Source: an uncultured Gammaproteobacteria bacterium (GTDB taxonomy: Bacteria > Patescibacteriota > Microgenomatia > UBA12405 > CAZGPK01). Taken from it: a stretch of 64,000 nucleotides of DNA. The notes below the pieces were generated by a model. The model was not told where the DNA came from and made no database searches. It was given only the letters and a program-made list of their open reading frames with translations. Both the position numbers and the translations under genes were made by a program. The DNA lies in assembly GCA_964527115.1 (NCBI GenBank), contig CAZGPK010000003.1:13189-77188 (forward strand), given 5' to 3'. Shown in pieces: positions 10,931 through 62,948 of the stretch; the stretch's first letter is position 1; each line of letters begins with the position of its first letter.

Positions 10931-11974
10931 TTAAACAAGATGAAGTTTTTTACGTAGATTTAAGAGGTGCCAACGGGAAGAATCAACTAAAGAATAGAGG
11001 CGGTAGAGAGAAGGCTTAAGAACCAAGTCCCAGGTACCAGTAAATTGAACCAGTTGTCCAGCATAGCCCATTTTGAAGCGGTGAAAACCGATCCAGGAAT
11101 TTTTGGGATCGGAATTGGGGCCTAAAGTGCCCCACATGTCAAAAGTTTTAAAGCCGAGGCGGCGACCCAAAAGAATGGCTTCCCACATGAGAAGGTTGCT
11201 GGCCATAACTTTTTTGTGAGCAGAGGAGCTGGCGCCGTAGGGGTAATACCAGGTATCAGACAGGCCGAAAAGGAGATAAGCAGCCAGAGTTTCATTTTGG
11301 TAGCGGGCCTGAAGAAGGTGAAGCATGCCGCTTGGCTTTAAAGTTTCCCAGAGAAGTTCGTGGTAGGCGCGAGTATGGAGATAAAAACCCTTGCGGCGGG
11401 TAAGATTGAAGGTGAGATCAAGGTAGGCCTTGAAACCCTGATCAGTAGTTTCCTCTACCACTTTCACCCCGTGGCGGGAGGCAAGGCTGATGTTGTAGCG
11501 GGTTTTGGGATGAAGAGCAGCTAAAAGCTCTTCCTCGGTTTGAGTGAGATCAATCAGGGCGGTATATGGAGAAAAAGCGTGGCGAGAAGAAGGGTAAAGA
11601 TCGGGAAAATTGGGAAGAGGGGTATCTTCTTTAAACGAAGTTTGATCGGGAGAAAAGCGACGATGGATACTGTTAGGCTCAAGTCTTATGAAAATGGCTT
11701 TCTGGTCGCGAGCAACAGAGCGAAGACTTTTTAACATTTCTTCGTCTGGTTGGGGACCACGAGGGAGGTAGCCGGCAAAATACGAAGTGTGGGGAATGGG
11801 ACTGAAGATGACTGAATAGGCAGAGAGCATTTTTTCATTTTCAAAAACTCCGAGGCGGACAACTTTTTTTCCTTGTTTTTCAGCAAACTCACCCCAGGCC
11901 CAAGTTTGTAAAGGATGATGAACGAGAGAGTCATAAATTGATCTTTCTTTTTCATAGAGAAGACGGGTAATCAT
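10931..11974 (-). CDS. FemAB-family peptidoglycan bridge-forming aminoacyltransferase
   Basis: 347 aa. The N-terminus HHPLQTWAWGEF is typical of FemX/FemAB (lipid II:aminoacyl-tRNA transferase family). Confidence 0.8.
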   Translation of the reverse strand: MITRLLYEKERSIYDSLVHHPLQTWAWGEFAEKQGKKVVRLGVFENEKMLSAYSVIFSPIPHTSYFAGYLPRGPQPDEEMLKSLRSVARDQKAIFIRLEPNSIHRRFSPDQTSFKEDTPLPNFPDLYPSSRHAFSPYTALIDLTQTEEELLAALHPKTRYNISLASRHGVKVVEETTDQGFKAYLDLTFNLTRRKGFYLHTRAYHELLWETLKPSGMLHLLQARYQNETLAAYLLFGLSDTWYYPYGASSSAHKKVMASNLLMWEAILLGRRLGFKTFDMWGTLGPNSDPKNSWIGFHRFKMGYAGQLVQFTGTWDLVLKPSLYRLYSLVDSSRWHLLNLRKKLHLV

Positions 11975-20412: not shown

Positions 20413-20640
20413 ATGGTAAAATGCCTAATGCCAGCGAATTGTCCGGAATGCAAATTTGGTGAGTCGAATTATTGCTTGATAAAAAGAGTTTTTATTGATC
20501 GAAGAGGAGAAACAGTTAAAGAAGAATCTTTTGGAAGTCAGTCTCTCATAGTTTGTCGGCCTCCAGGAACTCGCTCTGGATTTCCATATCGTAATCGGAT
20601 TGCACCCCTTGGGTACTGTGAAAGTGGCGAAAAAAAGTAG
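20413..20640 (+). CDS. Small Cys-rich protein (possible Zn-binding; 75 aa)
   Basis: C4, C10-x2-C13 (CPEC) and C21, plus C48 and C69. Lies 12 nt upstream of the AlaRS-like gene on the same strand. No clear SD, so coding status is uncertain. Confidence 0.35.
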   Translation: MVKCLMPANCPECKFGESNYCLIKRVFIDRRGETVKEESFGSQSLIVCRPPGTRSGFPYRNRIAPLGYCESGEKK

Positions 20641-20652
20641 GAACTTAAGACT

Positions 20653-21837
20653 ATGCCAAGAAACGAGTTAGATCCCTTAACCAAATTTGTTGAAAATAAC
20701 AGCCTATGTCTTAATGGTGAATTTATTTATCCCAGAACAGTATCAAATCCAGACTTCTCCTTCAGGGAACCAATCACTCACGATGGGAGACATTTTAGGT
20801 TTCTCGAATCTCCTATAGATCAAAAAGGGGCAGAGTTACTATCAACACCCGACTTCTTTAATCAATTTTTTACTAAAAACGGTTTTGATGTAATATCACC
20901 AATTCCATTGGTTAATAAAAACGGTACAACCTTATTTATTTGTGCTGGAGTTCAAATTCTTGACTCTGTAATTCATCAAGAAGCTCCAATTCCCCAAAAA
21001 CCGTCATTTGTGGCTCAACCTGTTCTAAGAACTCAGTTTATAGACTATATCGGAGAAGGGACATCGACTAGCTTTATTAACGTATCAACCTGTCAACTAA
21101 ACCTCAGCCGTCAAGAACATTTTCAGCATTTACAAACTTGGGTAGATCTATTTTTACAACTAGGACTTAAGGAGACAGATTTATATTTCAAAATCAAACC
21201 CTATGAACAGCGATGGGGGGACAAAGTTGTAAAAAGCGAAAAAATCTTTATCATTTATGACGGATTAGAAATAGGAGATTCTTCCTATGTTGAGAATCTT
21301 CCTCAAAAAGGCAGACGCAATTTATCCTTAAGTGATATTGGTTTCGGGTTAGAAAGAATTAAATGGATTATGCAGGGAGGGTCATATTTTGACGTATTAG
21401 GCAATGGCAGAGTATCGGATAATATTGACAGAGTATCAGCTGTTTGCACCCACACCCTATCTCTATTAGCTGGTGAAGGTCTAAAACCATCCAACAAGGA
21501 ACAGGGTTATCGATTTAGGTTATTCTCCAAAAAATTAGTTTCAGATATTTTAGGCAACCACTTAGAAACCAATGAACAAGTTAGAAGCTATTATGATTAT
21601 TGGAAAATATGGACCAATTTATCACTTTCGGTAGATCAAGCATTACATGCAGTTACTCAAGAAAATACCAGAAATTTCAATCGAAATTTATTGGACAAAC
21701 TCTGTGAAAAATATCCAGATGTTGGGTTAGATATAAATCTGCCGACTACCGTTATTTTAAAACGATTAAAAGGTACTAGTGTAAAACCAGATTATTTATC
21801 ACAGGTGCTTTATGAATTAAAATACCAGAATGGATAG
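20653..21837 (+). CDS. Stand-alone class IIc aminoacyl-tRNA-synthetase catalytic core, AlaRS-like paralogue (no tRNA-recognition, editing or C-Ala domains)
   Basis: Colinear with the AlaRS N-domain. TTLFICAGVQ matches TLLFTNAGMNQF and QPVLRTQ matches QRCVRAGG. SDIGFGLERIKWIMQGG matches VDTGMGLERIAAVLQ and KPSNKEQGYRFR matches MPSNEGRGYVLRR. Only 394 aa. Confidence 0.75.
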   Translation: MPRNELDPLTKFVENNSLCLNGEFIYPRTVSNPDFSFREPITHDGRHFRFLESPIDQKGAELLSTPDFFNQFFTKNGFDVISPIPLVNKNGTTLFICAGVQILDSVIHQEAPIPQKPSFVAQPVLRTQFIDYIGEGTSTSFINVSTCQLNLSRQEHFQHLQTWVDLFLQLGLKETDLYFKIKPYEQRWGDKVVKSEKIFIIYDGLEIGDSSYVENLPQKGRRNLSLSDIGFGLERIKWIMQGGSYFDVLGNGRVSDNIDRVSAVCTHTLSLLAGEGLKPSNKEQGYRFRLFSKKLVSDILGNHLETNEQVRSYYDYWKIWTNLSLSVDQALHAVTQENTRNFNRNLLDKLCEKYPDVGLDINLPTTVILKRLKGTSVKPDYLSQVLYELKYQNG

Positions 21838-22534
21838 TGATATAAATACATCAATTGGTCAAATATTTCTTGGCGGTGGTGGTGGAGCGGAAGATAGTGT
21901 TTTGCTCGATAAAAGATTTCTTAATGCTCTAAAAAACAAAAAAATTGTATATATTCCAATTGCTTTAACACCAAAGTTAGGTGGTTATGAAAGTTGTTTT
22001 GATTGGATAACCTCCACTTTAACTAACGCATCGGATGATTTTATTGAAATTTCCATGTGGATAGATCTTAATAAAAAAAGCATAACTGATTTGGAAAACT
22101 ATGGCGGAATTTATATCGGAGGTGGTAATACTTACAAACTATTAAATCATGTATATAAGTCTGGATTTAGTGAAGTCCTAATTGAATTTTATAACCGGGG
22201 TGGGCTAATTTATGGTGGAAGTGCCGGAGCAGTTATTCTAGGCAAATCAATTTCAATAGTTTCCGAAGAAAATGACGCGAACTATAAATATGAGAATGGT
22301 CTCAATTTGTTGAATGATAAATCCGTACTATGTCATTTTGATAAAGACATTAAGATTACAGTTGAGCACTTCATAGAGAATAAAAGAGGGGATGTAATCG
22401 CGCTTACTGAGAAGTCAGGACTAATAATATCAAATAATAATTCGGTTGAATCGGTTGGTTTTGAACCAGTAACTATTTATACCCTTTCGGGTAAAGACGA
22501 ACAGTTAAACCCTGGAGAAAAGTCAAAAATTTAG
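21830..22534 (+). CDS. S51-family serine peptidase (peptidase E / cyanophycinase-like)
   Basis: GIYIGGGNTYKLLNHV...GGLIYGGSAGAVILGKSI matches PepE IVIVGGGNTFQLL...ALYIGWSAGANL. VLCHFD matches INPHF. 8-nt overlap with the upstream gene. Confidence 0.8.
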   Translation: MDSDINTSIGQIFLGGGGGAEDSVLLDKRFLNALKNKKIVYIPIALTPKLGGYESCFDWITSTLTNASDDFIEISMWIDLNKKSITDLENYGGIYIGGGNTYKLLNHVYKSGFSEVLIEFYNRGGLIYGGSAGAVILGKSISIVSEENDANYKYENGLNLLNDKSVLCHFDKDIKITVEHFIENKRGDVIALTEKSGLIISNNNSVESVGFEPVTIYTLSGKDEQLNPGEKSKI

Positions 22535-22556: not shown

Positions 22557-23513
22557 ATGGTATCGCTAAAAGAAATCGGCCTTGTTGACACAATTGATTG
22601 TCATACTCATTCTGGTGGTGTAGACCTTTACAATCTATATACTGGTGATTTACCTATGGCTCAGTCTGTTGACGATTTAGTTCTTAAAGCCAGATCTTCA
22701 GGCATTTCTAAAGTAGTAACCTTTCCTTTTCCAACTACCGGCTATTACAATGTTCACGAGCTGGTCACACGTAACGTAAGAATTCCCTCGGGGCAACAAG
22801 ATTTCCCCTATCAAGTTGAAAATATGGCTTTAATAAAAGGTTGTGAGAACTCCGACCTTCCACTCTTACCTTTTATGGCCATCGATCCATCAAATCATAT
22901 TCAGGAACAAGTAGATAGCCTCCGCCAAAATTATAAAAAAAGAAAATTCTATGGTTTAAAATTACATACTCTGGCAACAGGTTCTACTGCTGATAAACTA
23001 ATTGGTTCAGAAATTGTAGAATTTGCTCAGGAAAAAAATATACCAATAATAATTCACTCAGGTTTGGGTGACGAGCATTCACACCCTCAAAACATAGTTA
23101 AATTAGCCAAACAGTCTCCAAACCTGCGTGTTTGTGTGGCTCACCTTGCTTGGTTAGACGAAGATACAATTAAAAATGTGGCTAAAACGAACAACGTGTT
23201 TATTGACACTTGTCCGTTTCTCCAAATATGTAACCGTGTCAGAAAAGGAAGTAAAATGGTATTTTCACCAAATTTAATAGATCCCAACAAACCAGCCGAA
23301 TCTTTGTTTAATTATTATAAATTATTAAAAAATAATTTAATTTGGGGTACAGATGAACCTTGGACAAAATGCATAAGTGCGAGAGGAAATGTCTCCAGTA
23401 ATCATACTTATGGTGACGAAGCCCAGGTTATTTCGGATCTATTTCAAATCTCCCCTCAAGCTGCGCTGGACATTACTTCTCGGAACACTGAAAGATTTAT
23501 CTTTGGTTCATAA
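22557..23513 (+). CDS. Metal-dependent TIM-barrel amidohydrolase (amidohydrolase_2-like)
   Basis: N-terminal HxH (IDCHTHSGG), internal IIIHSG and CVAHLAW His residues, and the C-terminal WGTDEPW Asp motif. Confidence 0.7.
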   Translation: MVSLKEIGLVDTIDCHTHSGGVDLYNLYTGDLPMAQSVDDLVLKARSSGISKVVTFPFPTTGYYNVHELVTRNVRIPSGQQDFPYQVENMALIKGCENSDLPLLPFMAIDPSNHIQEQVDSLRQNYKKRKFYGLKLHTLATGSTADKLIGSEIVEFAQEKNIPIIIHSGLGDEHSHPQNIVKLAKQSPNLRVCVAHLAWLDEDTIKNVAKTNNVFIDTCPFLQICNRVRKGSKMVFSPNLIDPNKPAESLFNYYKLLKNNLIWGTDEPWTKCISARGNVSSNHTYGDEAQVISDLFQISPQAALDITSRNTERFIFGS

Positions 23514-24769
23514 ATCTTAATCTGTCCACTAACTATTTTATTAGTTATTTCACTGTGTTTTATAAGATTTTCTTCAACTATATTACTTATACTCATCCTT
23601 AATTCCTCGTCAATATCTTTCTGATATCCATCTAGTGCGATAGCGGCTTGCCAGGGATCATTCATATCTCTGCCCATTTGTGAAGTTAAGTAAACAGTGC
23701 TTTCAATACCTAACGTTTTAAATATTTCTTCGGCAATAATGTCGCCAATTACAGTAAATATTTTTCCAGTATGATAAACAGGATTTTTTCCGCAAGGTGC
23801 CTCTGAGCTCATGTTCCTTGTAAAAGGGATTATTCCATTCGACCTGTTCCCTCTACCTACCGCTCCTTCGTCTCCGCTCTCAACTGCGCTCCCAATGGCG
23901 GTTAGATATATATCTTGATTATCAAAATTATCACGGGTATTTAATATAATATCTATCGAATATGTCGGAAATTCCCTCTTTAGCATATTGATAAGCAATT
24001 CTTTTAGTTCGTTTAGTTTTTGAATATAGAAACCCTGGTCAGGTGTAAATTCTGCAATAAATGGGATACATAAGGTTAACTCAATATTCTTACTAACTCT
24101 TTTTCCCATTACTTTAATATCAGTCCCAACATATTGATGAGATTTTTTAAATTTAGCGTTGTCTAGTAATCCCTCGGAAATAATCACCATGTTCTCCAAA
24201 TCCGATAAAGGAAAATAGCTTACCGTAGTGGAAGTATCATTCGACCTAAATCCATTGCTATGATGTTTTATATACTTTTCATCAGACACTGAAAAGAATT
24301 GACTTCTTTCATTCTTAGTCGTGCCATCCTTATTGTAAACCACTCCCGGTCCTTGGGAAAAATGTGTATTATCGATAATTTTTAACCATTTATCTGTATC
24401 TAATAACGGAAAGATATTTTTAAAGTGATCTTTTACAACATTATTGACGATTTTCATATAGTCAATTTCTTCATCTAAAAAAATATGAGTAAATCTTCCA
24501 TTTAGCAATATTCTTATTGGAGAAGTCATTTCTCCCTGACCAAAACTTACCTTTGAAGAACCTCCAAGGACGGCAACCTTATCCACCATATGACGTAAAA
24601 TTACCCCATACTTATCAAGACAATAAGTTGAGTATGCCACCGAAATTTTCTCCGCTACCGCATCACATAAATTGTCTGGGTGGCCAATCCCTTTCCTTTC
24701 GACAACTTCATACTCTGTATCATTGATATTTGGCTTACCTGTCTTGAAAACGACAAAATTATTTAACAT
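23456..24769 (-). CDS. Archaeal-type S-adenosylmethionine synthetase (MAT)-like protein
   Basis: VVERKGIGHPDNLCD, SNDTSTTVSYFPLS, GTDIKVMG and YLTAIGSAVESGDEGAVGRGNRSNG...GKNPVYHTGKIF are colinear with M. jannaschii-type MAT motifs. The 3' end overlaps the amidohydrolase gene by 58 nt. Confidence 0.85.
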   Translation of the reverse strand: MLNNFVVFKTGKPNINDTEYEVVERKGIGHPDNLCDAVAEKISVAYSTYCLDKYGVILRHMVDKVAVLGGSSKVSFGQGEMTSPIRILLNGRFTHIFLDEEIDYMKIVNNVVKDHFKNIFPLLDTDKWLKIIDNTHFSQGPGVVYNKDGTTKNERSQFFSVSDEKYIKHHSNGFRSNDTSTTVSYFPLSDLENMVIISEGLLDNAKFKKSHQYVGTDIKVMGKRVSKNIELTLCIPFIAEFTPDQGFYIQKLNELKELLINMLKREFPTYSIDIILNTRDNFDNQDIYLTAIGSAVESGDEGAVGRGNRSNGIIPFTRNMSSEAPCGKNPVYHTGKIFTVIGDIIAEEIFKTLGIESTVYLTSQMGRDMNDPWQAAIALDGYQKDIDEELRMSISNIVEENLIKHSEITNKIVSGQIKIYEPKINLSVFREVMSSAA

Positions 24770-24870: not shown

Positions 24871-25395
24871 ATGAAAACATATATTCTCCCCGGATACTCT
24901 GACAAAAATAAGTTTTGGGTTGATGAAACCGTCGCTTTTTTAAAACCAGCAATTCCGGCAATTGGTCTTTACTGGAATCATTGGGATGGCAGTTCCACAG
25001 AAGATGGCTGGATTGAAGAAGAAGCTCGAAGAATTATAAATGACTCAAATAATGAGAAAATAAATATTGTCGCTAAATCTGTCGGGGCAATGGTTTGTAT
25101 GGCTGTACTAAAATTAAAGCCAGAATTAGTAAATAAAGTAATTTTGTGTGGAATCCCATTTAAAGACTTTCTTCCAGGTGATGAAAAGAGATATGAGTCT
25201 TTAAAATCTGTTATGCCAAATAATATTCTGCGTATCCAAAATGAGGAAGATAATTATGGATCATTTGAGAAGACGGAATCCTTTGTTCGTTCAATTAATC
25301 CCAACATTAAAGTAGTCTCAAAACCACGAAACGATCACTACTATCCCTACTCGGAAGATTTCAAGAATTTCTTAATCGAGAACAATAATCAATAA
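24871..25395 (+). CDS. Small alpha/beta serine hydrolase (YdeN/RBBP9-like)
   Basis: 174 aa. Nucleophile elbow IVAKSVGAMV, acidic NEEDNYGS and C-terminal NDHYYP His. Divergent from the MAT-like gene across a 101-bp spacer. Confidence 0.6.
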   Translation: MKTYILPGYSDKNKFWVDETVAFLKPAIPAIGLYWNHWDGSSTEDGWIEEEARRIINDSNNEKINIVAKSVGAMVCMAVLKLKPELVNKVILCGIPFKDFLPGDEKRYESLKSVMPNNILRIQNEEDNYGSFEKTESFVRSINPNIKVVSKPRNDHYYPYSEDFKNFLIENNNQ

Positions 25396-25679: not shown

Positions 25680-26333
25680 ATGACTACAGAAGAGCCTCTT
25701 GAGATTCAGAGTGGTGCAATCGAAGAGAGGTTTGCAGCAAACAGGGAATTGCCACATATACGGGTAGATGATTTAAAACCGTTTTGGGTAAGGGGAATTA
25801 TTGATCCAGAAGATCCCTGGAGCATCCAAACAGTTGAAGAAGTACCAGTTAGGCTGATAGCGGCAAGTTCTGTTTTGAGAGATTGGGGCGATATTCAAAG
25901 ACAGAGTGGAGAAAAATTAAAAAGAATAGTTGATGGTCTTCGTTCTGGAGAGCTTGTGCCCGACAGGGAGCCAGTTATTCTTTTTGAATATGGGGGAATT
26001 TACGGCATATATGATGGGCAAAAGCGAATGATGGCGGCAAAGGCGCTGGGGATGGAAACTTGGCCAGCAAGAATACAGAGAACTATGCCAACCACTTTGG
26101 AATTTTCAAGAGATACGGCTGCCTATCACGAGATAATGGGAGGAAGAATGGAAGGTGGGCTGTGGGAAGGGAAGCTTGAAGAGGTTGCGCTTGACGAGCA
26201 AGGAGGCTTAGTTTCTTCTAGATGGTCAATAGAAAGATATGATGGTTTATGGGTTTTTGCAAAGAAAATGGATCTGGCTCGAAGTGTGTATGAAAAACTT
26301 GGAGCAAATGGACAGGCTCCAAGCCTAATATGA
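25680..26333 (+). CDS. ParB/Srx-fold (ParB-like nuclease domain) protein
   Basis: IYDGQKRMMAAKALGMETWPARI matches the ParB N-domain core (DG..R..Aa..lG...ip). 217 aa with no recognisable HTH. Confidence 0.55.
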   Translation: MTTEEPLEIQSGAIEERFAANRELPHIRVDDLKPFWVRGIIDPEDPWSIQTVEEVPVRLIAASSVLRDWGDIQRQSGEKLKRIVDGLRSGELVPDREPVILFEYGGIYGIYDGQKRMMAAKALGMETWPARIQRTMPTTLEFSRDTAAYHEIMGGRMEGGLWEGKLEEVALDEQGGLVSSRWSIERYDGLWVFAKKMDLARSVYEKLGANGQAPSLI

Positions 26334-26364
26334 TCGACAGGGTGGCGTAAAGTTAGCCTCAAAA

Positions 26365-26395
26365 CTAGTTCGAACATAGTCCAATTGAGGGAGCC
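26365..26395 (+). repeat. Island repeat copy 1
   Basis: ctagttcgaacatagtccaattgagggagcc. A 23-nt stretch (aaaactagttcgaacatagtcca) is identical to copy 2. Contains the 8-bp palindrome GTTCGAAC. Confidence 0.85.
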
Positions 26396-26470: not shown

Positions 26471-26776
26471 ATGGAGAGTGATACGTGGTTAGTTAGTCCA
26501 AAAGAGCTTCGTGTCTCTGGATCTGTTCCCGCCGATGAAAGTGTCGTCAAAGAATACGAAAGATTACCAGCAGACACGATTCCTCCCGTCCAGGTTGTCA
26601 GACATCCCGAAGATGGTTTTCTTTATGTGGTTGATGGACACCATACATTGGAATCAGCTCTTAAGAGAAAAGATGAGCAGATACCAGTACAACGCTTTAC
26701 TGAAAACAGAGAGTTAAACGACCAAGAAGCAGAAAAGAGACGATTAAGATGGATAAAAAGCCAAAAGGGTGATTAA
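26471..26776 (+). CDS. Small ParB/Srx-fold (ParB-like nuclease domain) protein
   Basis: PPVQVVRHPEDGFLYVVDGHHTLESALKRKDEQIPVQRF carries the DGHH(R/T) ParB-like core. 101 aa. Confidence 0.6.
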   Translation: MESDTWLVSPKELRVSGSVPADESVVKEYERLPADTIPPVQVVRHPEDGFLYVVDGHHTLESALKRKDEQIPVQRFTENRELNDQEAEKRRLRWIKSQKGD

Positions 26777-26788
26777 GTGATCTTAAAA

Positions 26789-26820
26789 CTAGTTCGAACA
26801 TAGTCCAGCCGGGGGAGGCC
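26789..26820 (+). repeat. Island repeat copy 2
   Basis: ctagttcgaacatagtccagccgggggaggcc lies 13 nt after the stop codon of ParB-like gene 2. Confidence 0.85.
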
Positions 26821-62519: not shown

Positions 62520-62528
62520 AATAAAAAG

Positions 62529-62602
62529 TAGCAGGGGACGGAATCGAACCGTCGACCTCGGGGTTATGACTCCCGTGCTCTAACCAACTGAGCTACCCTG
62601 CC
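62529..62602 (-). tRNA. tRNA with anticodon CAU (Met, fMet or Ile2 not distinguishable)
   Basis: Hand-folded 74-nt cloverleaf: acceptor GGCAGGG/CCCTGCT (G1-U72), D arm GCTC-AGTTGGTTA-GAGC, T arm GACGG-TTCGATT-CCGTC. The anticodon loop is GTCATAA with an A31-C39 mismatch. Confidence 0.85.
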
Positions 62603-62626
62603 AAGGGAAGTTGATAGGTAGATTTT

Positions 62627-62650
62627 AACAAAAATCCCGCTGGGGCGGGA
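62627..62650 (-). terminator. Small hairpin plus U-run between the two minus-strand tRNAs
   Basis: tcccgc-tggg-gcggga is followed on the minus strand by TTTTTGTT. Confidence 0.4.
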
Positions 62651-62660
62651 CTTTAAAATT

Positions 62661-62733
62661 TGGTTGCGGGGCCGGGAGTTGAACCCGGTCTGTGAGATTA
62701 TGAGCCTCACGTGCAGCCGTACACTACCCCGCA
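62661..62733 (-). tRNA. tRNA with anticodon CAU, CCA encoded (initiator-like acceptor end)
   Basis: Acceptor TGCGGGG/CCCCGCA followed by A and CCA. Short D arm GTGT-ACGGCT-GCAC. Anticodon arm TGAGG-CTCATAA-TCTCA. T arm CCGGG-TTCAACT-CCCGG. Confidence 0.8.
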
Positions 62734-62829
62734 CGCTTTGAAAACTTTAAGGAACAGGCTATTCTACCAAGCCTGCCTCAAGAAGACAAGGAAGCGGAAG
62801 GGAGTATTTTGGGGTAAAATATCGCCAGG

Positions 62830-62903
62830 GGGCGTGTAGCTCAGTTGGTCAGAGCGCCGATCTTATACATCGGTGGTCGATGGTTCAAATCCATCCACGC
62901 CCA
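62830..62903 (+). tRNA. tRNA-Ile with anticodon UAU
   Basis: Perfect cloverleaf: acceptor GGGCGTG/CACGCCC, D arm GCTC-AGTTGGTCA-GAGC, T arm GATGG-TTCAAAT-CCATC. The anticodon arm is CCGAT-CTTATAC-ATCGG. Confidence 0.85.
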
Positions 62904-62948
62904 CAAAATATGCATTTTAAAAGGTGGTAAAGAAAGACAAGAAACGGT

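What the first reader, a model, noticed from the sequence alone, without database searches (positions are those of the whole stretch)
23456..24769. Archaeal-type SAM synthetase-like gene in a bacterial island, with an internal insertion and a C-terminal read-through
Its motifs (ERKGIGHPD, NDTS..V.Y.PLS, DIKVMG, GDEGAVGRGNR.NG, GKNPV.H.GKI) are those of the archaeal MAT class, not bacterial MetK. The flexible-loop region is replaced by a longer, different segment (FSQGPGVVYNKDGTTKNERSQFFSVSDEKYIKHHSNGFRS) than I recall for the M. jannaschii enzyme. The protein also continues about 17 aa past the usual ...G.V..F/Y end, into the 3' end of the convergent amidohydrolase gene. It is either a horizontally acquired housekeeping MAT or a neofunctionalised adenosyltransferase serving the cluster.
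Basis: partly seen in the sequence, partly recalled or inferred. Interest (0 to 1): 0.6.

Follow-up and report, generated by a model that had tools for sequence, protein, structure and literature searches.

The report
Archaeal-type SAM synthetase in a conserved cassette
This is a real, strongly conserved archaeal-class SAM synthetase gene in a candidate-phyla-radiation bacterium, and it almost always travels with a truncated alanyl-tRNA-synthetase-like gene and an S51 peptidase gene, which suggests an undescribed SAM-linked aminoacyl-transfer pathway and not plain housekeeping.

Summary
A 437-aa ORF at 23456-24769(-) is an archaeal-class methionine adenosyltransferase (PF01941, 340 bits; TM 0.91-0.93 to Pyrococcus, Methanocaldococcus and Sulfolobus MATs).

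- **Loop insertion.** It is not private to this gene. It marks a whole bacterial "long-loop" subfamily, found in CPR bacteria, reduced gut Bacilli and actinomycetes.
- **C-terminal tail.** The 17-aa tail is a lineage-specific read-through into the antisense of the amidohydrolase 3' end. Its pLDDT is about 42 and its length varies between close relatives.

The new result concerns the neighbours. In 35 of 40 assessable species genomes of the CPR/Bacilli clade, the MAT sits next to a truncated AlaRS-like protein (window 20653-21837) and an S51 peptidase (21830-22534). A seryl-tRNA synthetase is also adjacent in 18 of the 40. The pairing persists through gene-order changes, 4-nt gene overlaps and a natural AlaRS-like/S51 fusion.

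The closest known analogue is the ascamycin AcmF/AcmD/AcmE system. My best reading is that this is an active SAM synthetase feeding a dedicated aminoacyl-transfer/hydrolysis cassette. I could not test whether it is also the cell's only MAT.

The parts
23456..24769 (-). Archaeal-class methionine adenosyltransferase (MAT, SAM synthetase), 437 aa, of the bacterial 'long-loop' subfamily of PF01941
   Evidence: The ORF is. It matches PF01941 at 340 bits. It scores below the NCBIfam archaeal equivalog cut-offs, 311 against 481. PDB sequence matches are 6s81 and 7p83. The AF2 model has pLDDT 85 and Foldseek TM 0.91-0.93 to archaeal MATs. dN/dS is about 0.05.
24242..24361 (-). Gating-loop region (residues 137-176) carrying the ~17-18-residue insertion; conserved motifs QGPGVVY, NER, FF, H170, N172, R175
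   Evidence: Alignments with Pfu and Mja MAT are. Invariant columns are listed. Model pLDDT is 73-83 with a short helix at 164-169. The flexible loop corresponds to TkMAT residues 145-155 (PMC3853416).
23456..23509 (-). C-terminal 17-aa tail (residues 421-437, EPKINLSVFREVMSSAA) plus stop; read-through lying antisense to the 3' end of the amidohydrolase gene
   Evidence: The tail occurs only in P0001-P0004; P0005 (81% id) ends at KIY. It is the antisense of the conserved amidohydrolase C-terminus ...DITSRNTERFIFGS*. The relative L017 has only a 5-aa tail, EPNLS, and L012 has a stop directly after Y. pLDDT is about 42.
20653..21837 (+). 'X': stand-alone truncated AlaRS-like protein (aminoacylation domain plus start of the tRNA-recognition helical domain), 394 aa; constant partner of the MAT
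   Evidence: The AF2 model has pLDDT 92.9. Foldseek top hits are A. fulgidus AlaRS 2ztg and 3wqy at E 8e-17, followed by bacterial and human AlaRS catalytic fragments. The family profile matches AlaRS in the PDB at E 2.6e-13. hhalign to E. coli AlaRS residues 1-441 gives 96.8% probability. X is adjacent to the MAT in 38 of 40 assessable genomes.
21830..22534 (+). Peptidase_S51-family hydrolase (PepE/cyanophycinase family), 234 aa; overlaps X by 8 nt; constant partner
   Evidence: It matches PF03575 at E 1.3e-22. The Ser131 (GGSAGA) and His169 motifs align with Lmo0363 and cyanophycinase. It is adjacent in 35 of 40 assessable genomes. It is fused to X in P0303.
22557..23513 (+). Amidohydro_2-family metal hydrolase, 318 aa; optional cassette member, convergent with the MAT and overlapping it by 58 nt
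   Evidence: It matches PF04909 at E 2.6e-9. It is present only in the window lineage and in Shapirobacteria-type loci L007, L009, L014, L018 and L019. No solved relative was found by sequence.
24871..25395 (+). Small alpha/beta-hydrolase-fold protein, 174 aa, divergent from the MAT; found only in this genome's version, so membership of the cassette is doubtful
   Evidence: Hits to Abhydrolase_1 and Abhydrolase_11 are weak, E about 1.5e-5. It is absent from all related loci.

Best explanation
The gene encodes a catalytically competent archaeal-class methionine adenosyltransferase. It makes S-adenosylmethionine, or a very close S-adenosyl amino acid, from ATP and methionine.

It belongs to a bacterial 'long-loop' subfamily in which the active-site gating loop is rebuilt and about 17 residues longer.

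In CPR bacteria and reduced gut Bacilli this MAT is the first component of a small, horizontally mobile cassette. The second component, X, is a truncated AlaRS-like enzyme with the same architecture as AcmF of ascamycin biosynthesis. The third is an S51 serine hydrolase. A seryl-tRNA synthetase often sits next door.

Inferred mechanism, not shown:
1. The MAT supplies an adenosyl compound bearing a free amine.
2. X aminoacylates it, either from an aminoacyl-tRNA (Ser-tRNA where SerRS is linked) or from its own aminoacyl-adenylate.
3. The S51 enzyme hydrolyses that bond again, for maturation, recycling or self-protection.

The 17-aa C-terminal tail is a neutral read-through caused by loss of the ancestral stop codon where the amidohydrolase gene abuts. 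It has no function of its own.
For: Shown for the MAT:
- Family, fold and purifying selection.
- Conservation of the catalytic His30 and the TkMAT-equivalent substrate ligands N177, D217, Y288, D300 and V144.
- The insertion is shared by all long-loop members.

Shown for the linkage to X and S51:
- The cassette MAT+X+S51 occurs in 35 of 40 assessable GTDB species loci.
- It is conserved through a change of gene order: MAT> <S51<X in CPR, and MAT>X>S51 in Bacilli.
- Genes overlap by 4 nt (MAT/X in L102) and 8 nt (X/S51 in the window).
- There is a natural X-S51 fusion and an X-SAM-methyltransferase fusion.
- Three of the four divergent X representatives sampled lie within about 2.6 kb of a PF01941 MAT (adjacent in L100/L101 and L102/L103, three genes away in L099). 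The fourth follows SerRS with a 4-nt overlap.
- SerRS is adjacent in 18 of 40 loci.

Shown for distribution and mobility:
- The clade is rare, with 50 species among 185,579 genomes. The search patterns recover 92 of 92 independent clade members.
- Flanks differ between close relatives, with serine recombinases adjacent in L007 and L012.
- The sister clade is in Streptomyces and other actinomycetes, beside radical-SAM, methyltransferase and glycosyltransferase genes.

Shown for X and the analogy:
- X has the truncated AlaRS architecture.
- AcmF, AcmD and AcmE provide the precedent (PMC12945691).

Shown for the tail.
Against: - No biochemical data exist for any member.
- The window itself has no SerRS.
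- X keeps the class II activation residues R126, E206, D228, G230 and R235. AcmF has lost most of these, so X may not be aa-tRNA-dependent.
- The S51 fold differs from the AcmE alpha/beta-hydrolase.
- Tiny CPR and Bacilli genomes seldom keep two MATs, so this gene may simply be their only SAM synthetase.
- No bacterial MetK was found in the 64-kb window or in 1.13 Mb of related loci. That sample is too small to decide.
- Two clade members, L056 and L061, have the MAT without X or S51.
- Two Met-carboxylate ligands are replaced throughout the clade, His62 to R59 and Asn64 to M61. The true substrate may therefore not be plain methionine.
Confidence: 0.5

Rival explanations
1. Plain housekeeping. 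The archaeal-class MAT was acquired horizontally and is the only SAM synthetase of these reduced genomes. X, S51 and SerRS are merely neighbouring translation and peptide-metabolism genes that were co-transferred or kept together by chance synteny.
For: - The active-site core is conserved and purifying selection is strong.
- NCBI names relatives 'methionine adenosyltransferase'.
- The hosts are reduced genomes, and the window is an ordinary CPR chromosome with MetRS, GatA/B, MurJ and GroEL.
- No MetK was seen in the DNA available.
- The adjacent SerRS genes look like the vertical housekeeping copies, at 30-37% identity between phyla.
- L056 and L061 keep the MAT alone.
Against: - The clade is present in only about 50 of 185,579 species genomes, while Patescibacteria alone number thousands of species (my own knowledge). 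It is therefore not the general CPR MAT.
- Linkage to X and S51 survives gene-order inversion, transfer between phyla, gene overlaps and gene fusion.
- Flanks are not syntenic among close relatives.
- The sister clade sits in actinomycetes, which possess MetK (established knowledge), in biosynthetic-looking contexts.
Confidence: 0.28
2. Neofunctionalised adenosyltransferase. The rebuilt gating loop and the altered carboxylate site mean the enzyme no longer makes SAM. Instead it adenosylates another thioether or nucleophile, or uses another NTP, to make a non-SAM sulfonium nucleoside for the cassette.
For: - His62 to Arg59 and Asn64 to Met61, the Met-carboxylate ligands, are changed in all 49 CPR/Bacilli members.
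- The loop Asp144 that reads the adenine N6 is absent in all long-loop forms.
- The flexible loop is reported to gate nucleotide specificity in EcMAT (bioRxiv 10.64898/2026.07.10.737877).
- The protein scores below all NCBIfam MAT equivalog cut-offs.
Against: - The hydrophobic residue for the Met side chain (V144), the Met-amino and ribose ligand D300, N177, the adenine-stacking Y288 and the catalytic His are all retained.
- Arg59 can plausibly still bind a carboxylate.
- Actinomycete long-loop members and L092 keep His and Asn.
Confidence: 0.12
3. Amidoligase reading of the partners. X is an adenylate-forming ligase like AsnA, and the S51 protein, which has a class I glutamine-amidotransferase-like fold, delivers ammonia. 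Together they amidate a carboxylate, possibly that of Met or SAM. The MAT is coupled for that reason, not for aminoacyl transfer.
For: - S51 also hits GATase_3 at 27.3 bits (cut-off 27) and SNO.
- The fusion order, synthetase then GATase-like domain, in P0303 resembles known amidotransferases.
- X retains the activation residues.
- The MAT carboxylate site is altered in the same clade.
Against: - The nucleophile is Ser in a GGSAGA S51 motif, not the Cys of GATases.
- X keeps the AlaRS tRNA-recognition helical domain with the PSN motif.
- Repeated SerRS linkage, including a 4-nt overlap, is not explained.
- L092 and L102-type loci have X and S51 with an unaltered His/Asn site.
Confidence: 0.1

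Closest known systems
Archaeal methionine adenosyltransferases (PF01941; P. furiosus 6S81, M. jannaschii 7P83, S. solfataricus 4K0B, T. kodakarensis 4L4Q)
   Same: The fold is the same (TM 0.91-0.93, 31-34% identity). The ERKGxGHPD catalytic His, the GD(D/E)GxVGRGNR phosphate motif, and the ribose, adenine-stacking and Met-amino ligands are all shared.
   Different: The gating loop is about 17-18 residues longer and rebuilt. The Met-carboxylate ligands His62 and Asn64 are replaced by Arg59 and Met61, and Asp144 is lost. The host is bacterial. The protein scores below the NCBIfam equivalog cut-offs. The gene is embedded in a fixed cassette.
Ascamycin AcmF / AcmD / AcmE system (Streptomyces sp. 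80H647; Zheng et al. ACS Catal 2024, reviewed in PMC12945691)
   Same: Both have a truncated AlaRS-like protein with only the aminoacylation and tRNA-recognition domains. Both pair it with a full-length aaRS gene, a hydrolase that can remove the aminoacyl group, and an adenosine-derived small molecule.
   Different: The companion aaRS is SerRS, not AlaRS, and it is missing from the window. The hydrolase is S51, not an alpha/beta-hydrolase. X retains the activation residues that AcmF lost. The adenosyl compound would come from a MAT, not from a sulfamate pathway. The hosts are CPR bacteria and reduced Bacilli. Nothing has been tested biochemically.
Extra SAM synthetase copies inside biosynthetic gene clusters (dedicated SAM supply)
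   Same: Long-loop MATs in actinomycetes, L099 and L100 sit beside radical-SAM enzymes and methyltransferases, which are SAM consumers.
   Different: The extra SAM synthetase copies I know of in clusters are bacterial MetK-type (my own knowledge). The minimal CPR cassette contains no recognisable SAM-consuming enzyme.
Peptide-nucleotide / aminoacyl-nucleoside antibiotic systems with hydrolase self-immunity (microcin C MccF S66 peptidase, MccH HIT; albomycin with resistant SerRS)
   Same: Divergent cassette relatives are next to a Peptidase_S66 (L100) and a HIT protein (L104), extra aaRS paralogues, and SerRS.
   Different: No MccB-like adenylyltransferase or siderophore part is present. The roles of S51, S66 and HIT here are inferred from my own memory of those systems and were not tested.

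Membership tests
Archaeal-class MAT (PF01941, EC 2.5.1.6) | Sequence match to PF01941 above the gathering score | tested here: met
   The match is 340.1 bits against a cut-off of 27, covering 4-415 of 437 residues.
Archaeal-class MAT (PF01941, EC 2.5.1.6) | Match to the NCBIfam archaeal MAT equivalogs above their curated cut-offs | tested here: not met
   The best match, NF003362, scores 311 bits against a cut-off of 481. All five models are below cut-off.
Archaeal-class MAT (PF01941, EC 2.5.1.6) | Three-domain MAT fold superposable on solved archaeal MATs | tested here: met
   Foldseek gives E 6e-43, TM 0.93 and rmsd 2.2 to 6s81, with similar values for 7p8m, 4k0b and 4l4q. The model pLDDT is 85.
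Archaeal-class MAT (PF01941, EC 2.5.1.6) | Catalytic His and ligands for ribose, adenine stacking and Met amino group (TkMAT Asp201, Tyr271, Asp283, Asn161, Leu145) | tested here: met
   H30, D217, Y288, D300, N177 and V144 are invariant or nearly so across the clade.
Archaeal-class MAT (PF01941, EC 2.5.1.6) | Met-carboxylate ligands His62 and Asn64, and loop Asp144 reading adenine N6 (TkMAT numbering) | tested here: not met
   These positions are R59 and M61 in all 49 CPR/Bacilli members. The Asp144 column holds P or V, depending on the alignment. Actinomycete members keep His and Asn.
Archaeal-class MAT (PF01941, EC 2.5.1.6) | Formation of SAM from ATP and L-methionine | not testable with these tools
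   This needs an enzyme assay.
Housekeeping (sole) SAM synthetase of the genome | No other MAT (bacterial MetK) in the same genome | tested here: inconclusive
   E. coli MetK tblastn found nothing in the 64-kb window or in 1.13 Mb of related loci. Whole genomes could not be read.
Housekeeping (sole) SAM synthetase of the genome | Broad, vertical distribution and core synteny in the host lineage | tested here: not met
   The clade comprises 50 species of 185,579, and the search patterns are 92/92 sensitive. Flanks differ among relatives at 74-86% identity, with recombinases adjacent. The Bacilli branch nests beside the Microgenomates branch in the tree.
Bacterial/eukaryotic MetK (PF00438/PF02772/PF02773) | Sequence or close structural match to MetK | tested here: not met
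   There is no Pfam MetK hit. Foldseek to MetK structures gives only E about 1e-13 to 1e-14, TM about 0.5-0.6 and 11-14% identity.
AcmF-type aa-tRNA-dependent aminoacyltransferase system | Truncated AlaRS-like protein with only the aminoacylation and tRNA-recognition domains | tested here: met
   The X model matches AlaRS catalytic fragments. hhalign covers E. coli AlaRS residues 10-319, including the PSN..GY..R helical motif. X is 326-417 aa long and has no editing or C-Ala domain.
AcmF-type aa-tRNA-dependent aminoacyltransferase system | Loss of ATP/amino-acid activation residues (AcmF: N219Q, D232E, most ATP ligands gone) | tested here: not met
   X keeps the equivalents of R69, E209, D235, G237, W170 and the motif-3 Arg. 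Only N212 to D, W211 to G and V214 to S/A are changed, and the motif-2 loop is shortened.
AcmF-type aa-tRNA-dependent aminoacyltransferase system | Full-length aaRS encoded alongside to supply aa-tRNA and/or resistance | tested here: inconclusive
   SerRS is adjacent in 18 of 40 loci and overlaps X by 4 nt in L104. It is absent from the window, and it looks like the ordinary vertical copy.
AcmF-type aa-tRNA-dependent aminoacyltransferase system | Aminoacyl transfer onto an adenosine-derived amine, and hydrolase reversal | not testable with these tools
   This needs reconstitution with LC-MS.
Peptidase family S51 | Pfam match plus Ser nucleophile and His of the triad | tested here: met
   PF03575 matches at 81 bits. 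Ser131 in GGSAGA and His169 align with Lmo0363 and cyanophycinase. The third triad residue was not checked.
Integrative genomic island | Composition shift plus integrase and flanking repeats or a tRNA target | tested here: inconclusive
   There is a GC dip to 35%. The window has no recombinase, att-like repeat or tRNA at the edges. Large serine recombinases flank the cassette in L007 and L012.

The most novel reading that the evidence does not exclude
The MAT/AlaRS-like/S51 cassette, with SerRS where linked, makes and unmakes a previously unknown aminoacylated S-adenosyl compound, for example N-seryl- or N-alanyl-SAM. This would be a sulfonium aminoacyl-nucleoside. Ultra-small CPR bacteria and reduced gut Bacilli might use it as an aaRS-directed toxin against hosts or competitors, or as a protected or storage form of SAM. 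It would be the first SAM-derived member of the aminoacyl-nucleoside class and a second, independent use of the AcmF-type truncated AlaRS scaffold.
Probability: 0.2. Interest if true: 0.85.

Novelty: new variant of a known kind. Interest (0 to 1): 0.64.

Why it matters
MAT is one of the few universal enzymes with two deeply split classes, and the archaeal class is usually treated as archaea-only.

This work defines a bacterial long-loop subfamily of that class. It has a rebuilt gating loop, the element known to control substrate access and nucleotide choice.

In CPR bacteria and reduced gut Bacilli the subfamily is locked to a truncated AlaRS-like enzyme and an S51 hydrolase. That gives a concrete, testable three-protein system that could reveal:
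- a new fate of SAM;
- a second natural example of the AcmF-type aminoacyl-transfer chemistry;
- a rare small-molecule pathway in organisms thought to have almost no secondary metabolism.

The subfamily also offers new MAT scaffolds for making SAM analogues.

Tried and rejected
- **Genome contigs with the single protein.** This found nothing. It had to be repeated with alignment A1.
- **Viral origin or auxiliary metabolic gene.** There are no relatives in IMG/VR.
- **Anti-phage defence system.** No PADLOC model hits any cassette protein.
- **Island inserted into rarA/mgsA in L007.** The two MgsA_C fragments are only 21% identical and no flanking direct repeats exist, so I rejected this.
- **att-like repeats or a tRNA at the window cassette edges.** None were found.
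- **Co-transfer of SerRS with the cassette between phyla.** I rejected this, because SerRS is 30-37% identical between phyla against 46-52% for the MAT.
- **Archaeal identity of the 'Nanoarchaeota' contig L092.** The neighbours (FtsZ, nucleotidyltransferases) do not decide it.
- **Promoter and terminator scan.** Matches were no more frequent than in shuffled sequence.
- **Bacterial MetK.** It was sought by tblastn only in the window and the fetched loci, which is uninformative for whole genomes.
- **Streptomyces ORF clustering.** It was noisy because of high-GC spurious ORFs, so I replaced it with GC3-filtered ORFs plus Pfam.
- **afdb50 fold library.** It was unavailable.
- **Literature searches** for PF01941, archaeal-type MAT in CPR, and metK in CPR found nothing relevant.
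Full report
**1. The observation**

The window has a 437-aa ORF at 23456..24769 on the minus strand. It matches Pfam PF01941, the archaeal AdoMet synthetase family, at 340 bits and E 2e-101 over residues 4-415. It has no match to the bacterial MetK domains. By sequence the closest solved proteins are the MATs of P. furiosus (6s81, E 6e-68), M. jannaschii (7p83), S. solfataricus and T. kodakarensis. An AlphaFold2 model built on 26 homologues (pLDDT 85.1) superposes on these at TM 0.91-0.93 and 31-34% identity. Bacterial and eukaryotic MetK structures reach only TM about 0.5-0.6.

The gene is under strong purifying selection. Against relatives at 74-86% identity, dN is 0.085-0.16 and dS is saturated, giving dN/dS of about 0.05. 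The identical protein occurs on seven independently assembled groundwater-metagenome contigs of project PRJNA268031.

**2. The host**

The window carries MetRS, MurJ, GatA/GatB, a FemAB-family gene, UvrD, DUF2298, UppS, several PMT_2 glycosyltransferases, RecF and GroEL. Homologues of the MAT are named Candidatus Shapirobacteria or Patescibacteria. This is an ordinary chromosome segment of a candidate-phyla-radiation (CPR, Patescibacteria) bacterium. The cassette lies in a GC dip, 35% at 20-26 kb against about 44% in the flanks. The window shows no recombinase, tRNA or att-like repeat at the edges.

**3. The loop insertion**

Compared with Pfu and Mja MAT, residues 137-176 contain about 17-18 extra residues exactly where archaeal MATs have the flexible gating loop. 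That loop is TkMAT residues 145-155 (PMC3853416).

The insertion is not special to this gene:
- All close homologues, 52-100% identical and 417-437 aa long, have it, with invariant G140-P-G-V-V-Y145, N153, R155, F158-F159, H170, N172 and R175.
- 116 of 118 full-length top hits carry the GPGVVY-like motif.
- A second clade at 37-43% identity, in Streptomyces and other actinomycetes, has an insertion of the same length with its own consensus, SPGAV...R..WF.PR..DDL.E.

The insertion therefore defines a bacterial long-loop subfamily of PF01941. In the model it is moderately ordered, with pLDDT 73-83 and a short helix at 164-169.

**4. The active site**

I used the residues named for TkMAT, transferred through the Pfu alignment.

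Retained throughout the subfamily:
- the catalytic His (H30);
- Asn161 (N177);
- Asp201 (D217);
- Tyr271 (Y288);
- Asp283 (D300);
- the hydrophobic Leu145 (V144).

Changed:
- Two ligands of the methionine carboxylate are replaced in all 49 CPR/Bacilli members, His62 to Arg59 and Asn64 to Met61. The actinomycete clade and L092 keep His and Asn.
- The loop Asp144 that reads adenine N6 has no counterpart in any long-loop form.

The protein also falls below all NCBIfam MAT equivalog cut-offs, 311 against 481 bits. I read this as a functional adenosyltransferase that most likely still makes SAM, since an Arg can hold a carboxylate. A shift in substrate detail cannot be excluded.

**5. The C-terminal tail**

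The tail EPKINLSVFREVMSSAA occurs only in the four closest relatives at 82% identity or more. A relative at 81% ends at ...KIY like all others. The tail is the antisense reading of the conserved C-terminus of the convergent amidohydrolase...DITSRNTERFIFGS*. That C-terminus is homologous to the one found in loci where the two genes do not overlap.

In L012 a stop follows the Tyr directly. In L017 the stop has become GAA and the tail is 5 aa long. In the window lineage it is 17 aa long. The model gives the tail a pLDDT of about 42. The tail is therefore a read-through after stop-codon loss. Its apparent conservation is imposed by the gene on the other strand.

**6. The neighbourhood, which is the main finding**

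Relatives of the MAT were looked up on their contigs and in one genome per species of GTDB (289 relatives, 80 loci kept). The clade at 48% identity or more comprises 50 species:
- Patescibacteria of several classes, labelled Shapiro-, Paceibacterota, Parcu-, Nomura-, Giovannoni-, Kaiser-, Yanofsky-, Adler- and Taylorbacteria;
- reduced gut Bacilli or 'Mollicutes' MAGs, such as Mycoplasma sp. CAG:776 and Candidatus Aphodocola.

The two search patterns recover 92 of 92 independent clade members, so the count is reliable. The clade is rare for a lineage that comprises thousands of species (my own knowledge).

Of the 40 loci with at least 2.5 kb downstream of the MAT:
- 35 have both a homologue of window ORF 20653..21837 ('X') and a homologue of the S51 peptidase 21830..22534 within 6 kb;
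- 3 have X only;
- 2 have neither.

The order is MAT> <S51<X in CPR and MAT>X>S51 in Bacilli. The linkage has therefore survived an inversion and a transfer between phyla. In the NJ tree the Bacilli branch sits beside the Microgenomates branch that contains the window.

Further signs of coupling:
- X and S51 overlap by 8 nt in the window.
- MAT and X overlap by 4 nt in L102.

The alpha/beta-hydrolase is present only in this genome.

Flanks outside the cassette differ among relatives at 74-86% identity. Large serine recombinases adjoin the cassette in L007 and L012. There are no relatives in viral contigs and no PADLOC hits.

**7. What the partners are**

X folds with pLDDT 92.9. Its best structural matches are alanyl-tRNA synthetases: A. 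fulgidus 2ztg and 3wqy at E 8e-17, then the catalytic fragments of the E. coli, A. aeolicus and human enzymes, then GlyRS alpha. The family profile finds AlaRS in the PDB at E 2.6e-13. hhalign aligns X with E. coli AlaRS residues 10-319 at 96.8% probability.

X consists of the aminoacylation domain plus the start of the tRNA-recognition helical domain, with the motif PSNK..GYRFR against PSNENRGYVLRR in E. coli. It has no editing or C-Ala domain.

- Retained: the equivalents of R69, W170, E209, D235, G237 and the motif-3 Arg (R126, W188, E206, D228, G230, R235).
- Changed: N212 to D209, W211 to G208 and V214 to S/A, and a shortened motif-2 loop.

The S51 protein matches PF03575. It keeps the GGSAGA serine and the downstream His, aligned with Lmo0363 and cyanophycinase.

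**8. Fusions and wider contexts**

A profile search of X against 1.84 billion representatives gave 285 members at E 1e-30 or better. Two long members are fusions:
- P0303 is X plus Peptidase_S51.
- P0326 is X plus a class I SAM-dependent methyltransferase domain (MTS / TRM5-TYW2-like).

Their contigs again carry a long-loop PF01941 MAT.
- In L100 and L101 the order is radical-SAM > MAT > X-S51 > a 38-aa Cys-rich ORF > two class II aaRS paralogues > methyltransferase > a class IIb aaRS core > Peptidase_S66 (the MccF/LdcA family).
- In L099 the neighbours are glycosyltransferases, methyltransferases, two radical-SAM genes and a DegT-type aminotransferase.

Another divergent X (L102) sits in MAT>X <S51. 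In L104, X follows a seryl-tRNA synthetase with a 4-nt overlap, near HIT and APH-like genes.

SerRS is also adjacent to the cassette in 18 of the 40 assessable species loci, in CPR and in two Bacilli. These SerRS genes diverge like ordinary vertical copies, at 30-37% identity between phyla.

The actinomycete long-loop MATs lack X and S51. They sit beside GT2, methyltransferase, radical-SAM/SPASM, carbamoyltransferase and UDP-GlcNAc 2-epimerase genes.

**9. Interpretation**

The long-loop MATs are repeatedly embedded in pathway-like gene sets. In the CPR/Bacilli clade they are locked to an AlaRS-like enzyme and an S51 hydrolase.

The closest described precedent is ascamycin biosynthesis (PMC12945691):
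- AcmF is a truncated AlaRS-like protein with only the aminoacylation and tRNA-recognition domains. It transfers Ala from Ala-tRNA onto the amine of an adenosine sulfamate.
- AcmD is an extra full-length AlaRS. It supplies the Ala-tRNA and confers resistance.
- AcmE is a hydrolase that removes the alanyl group again.

By analogy I propose the following. The MAT supplies an S-adenosyl amino acid. X aminoacylates it, from aa-tRNA or from its own adenylate, since unlike AcmF it keeps the activation residues. S51 reverses or matures the product.

What is shown: the family and fold assignments, residue conservation, gene linkage, fusions and distribution. What is inferred: the chemistry.

The main rival is that this is simply the horizontally acquired, sole MAT of these reduced genomes. 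No MetK was found in the window or in 1.13 Mb of related loci, but whole genomes could not be examined. The two readings are not exclusive.

**10. Literature**

Full-text searches found nothing describing bacterial members of the family. The searches covered PF01941, archaeal-type MAT in CPR or Patescibacteria, metK in CPR, and AlaRS-like proteins with SAM. Databases already name the protein 'methionine adenosyltransferase'. The gene itself is thus a new member of a known family. The long-loop subfamily and its fixed cassette appear to be a new variant.

Noticed in passing
window 26358-26393 and 26782-26817: A 36-nt direct repeat (86% identical) follows each of two consecutive small ORFs, 25680-26333 and 26471-26776. 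The second ORF is weakly ParB-like nuclease (PF08857). The repeat looks like a repeated intergenic element or terminator of a duplicated unit.
   Followed up: no
window 62528-62904: There is a cluster of two tRNA-Met (CAT) genes and a divergent tRNA-Ile with anticodon TAT (UAU), which is an uncommon way for bacteria to read AUA.
   Followed up: no
window 20413-20640 (+): A 75-aa ORF lies directly upstream of the AlaRS-like gene and is called as a gene on all contigs of this genome. It has no family match, and its conservation outside this genome was not checked.
   Followed up: no
L100 5456-16977 (also L101): This is a biosynthetic-looking cluster. It holds radical SAM, a long-loop MAT, an X-S51 fusion, a 38-aa Cys-rich ORF (MIGQDIDINTKKPIGELRSVEKKTCKCEECGRECDCKA), two HisRS/ProRS-class aaRS paralogues, a UbiE-like methyltransferase, a class IIb aaRS core and a Peptidase_S66 (MccF family). 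It may be a RiPP or peptide-nucleotide pathway.
   Followed up: partly
L099 5721-7490: An AlaRS-like X domain is fused to a class I SAM methyltransferase domain (MTS/TRM5-TYW2-like). It lies in a cluster with GT1, GT2, two radical-SAM genes, a long-loop MAT and a DegT/EryC1 aminotransferase.
   Followed up: partly
L104 1-2162: A seryl-tRNA synthetase gene overlaps the start of an X-family gene by 4 nt (translational coupling). HIT-family and APH-like genes and an ABC exporter lie nearby, and no MAT is seen on the part of the contig read.
   Followed up: partly
L067-L096 (Streptomyces and other actinomycetes): Long-loop PF01941 homologues at 37-43% identity occur in many Streptomyces genomes. 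They usually have a GT2 gene directly upstream and methyltransferase, radical-SAM/SPASM, carbamoyltransferase or UDP-GlcNAc 2-epimerase genes nearby. In at least two loci examined (L068, L074) their GC3 is below the 0.85 filter that the neighbouring genes pass. I know of no characterised function.
   Followed up: partly
L007 14126-15826 and L012 6322-7938: Large serine recombinases (Resolvase+Recombinase+Zn_ribbon) lie immediately beside the MAT/X/S51 cassette in two relatives. This suggests the cassette can ride on integrative elements. No att repeats were found in L007.
   Followed up: partly
window 1-64000: GC skew is positive in almost every 2-kb bin, with a monotonic cumulative rise to 7.8, although many genes are on the minus strand. 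AT skew peaks at 16-18 kb and 36-40 kb over large membrane-protein genes.
   Followed up: no
window 10931-11974 (-): A FemAB-family (aminoacyl-tRNA-dependent peptidoglycan bridge) gene lies next to gatA/gatB. It is another aa-tRNA-using enzyme in this small genome.
   Followed up: no
L092 5953-9271: A contig labelled Nanoarchaeota carries a long-loop MAT (40% id), an X gene apparently split into two ORFs, and an S51 gene. The neighbours (FtsZ, nucleotidyltransferases) do not settle whether the contig is archaeal.
   Followed up: partly
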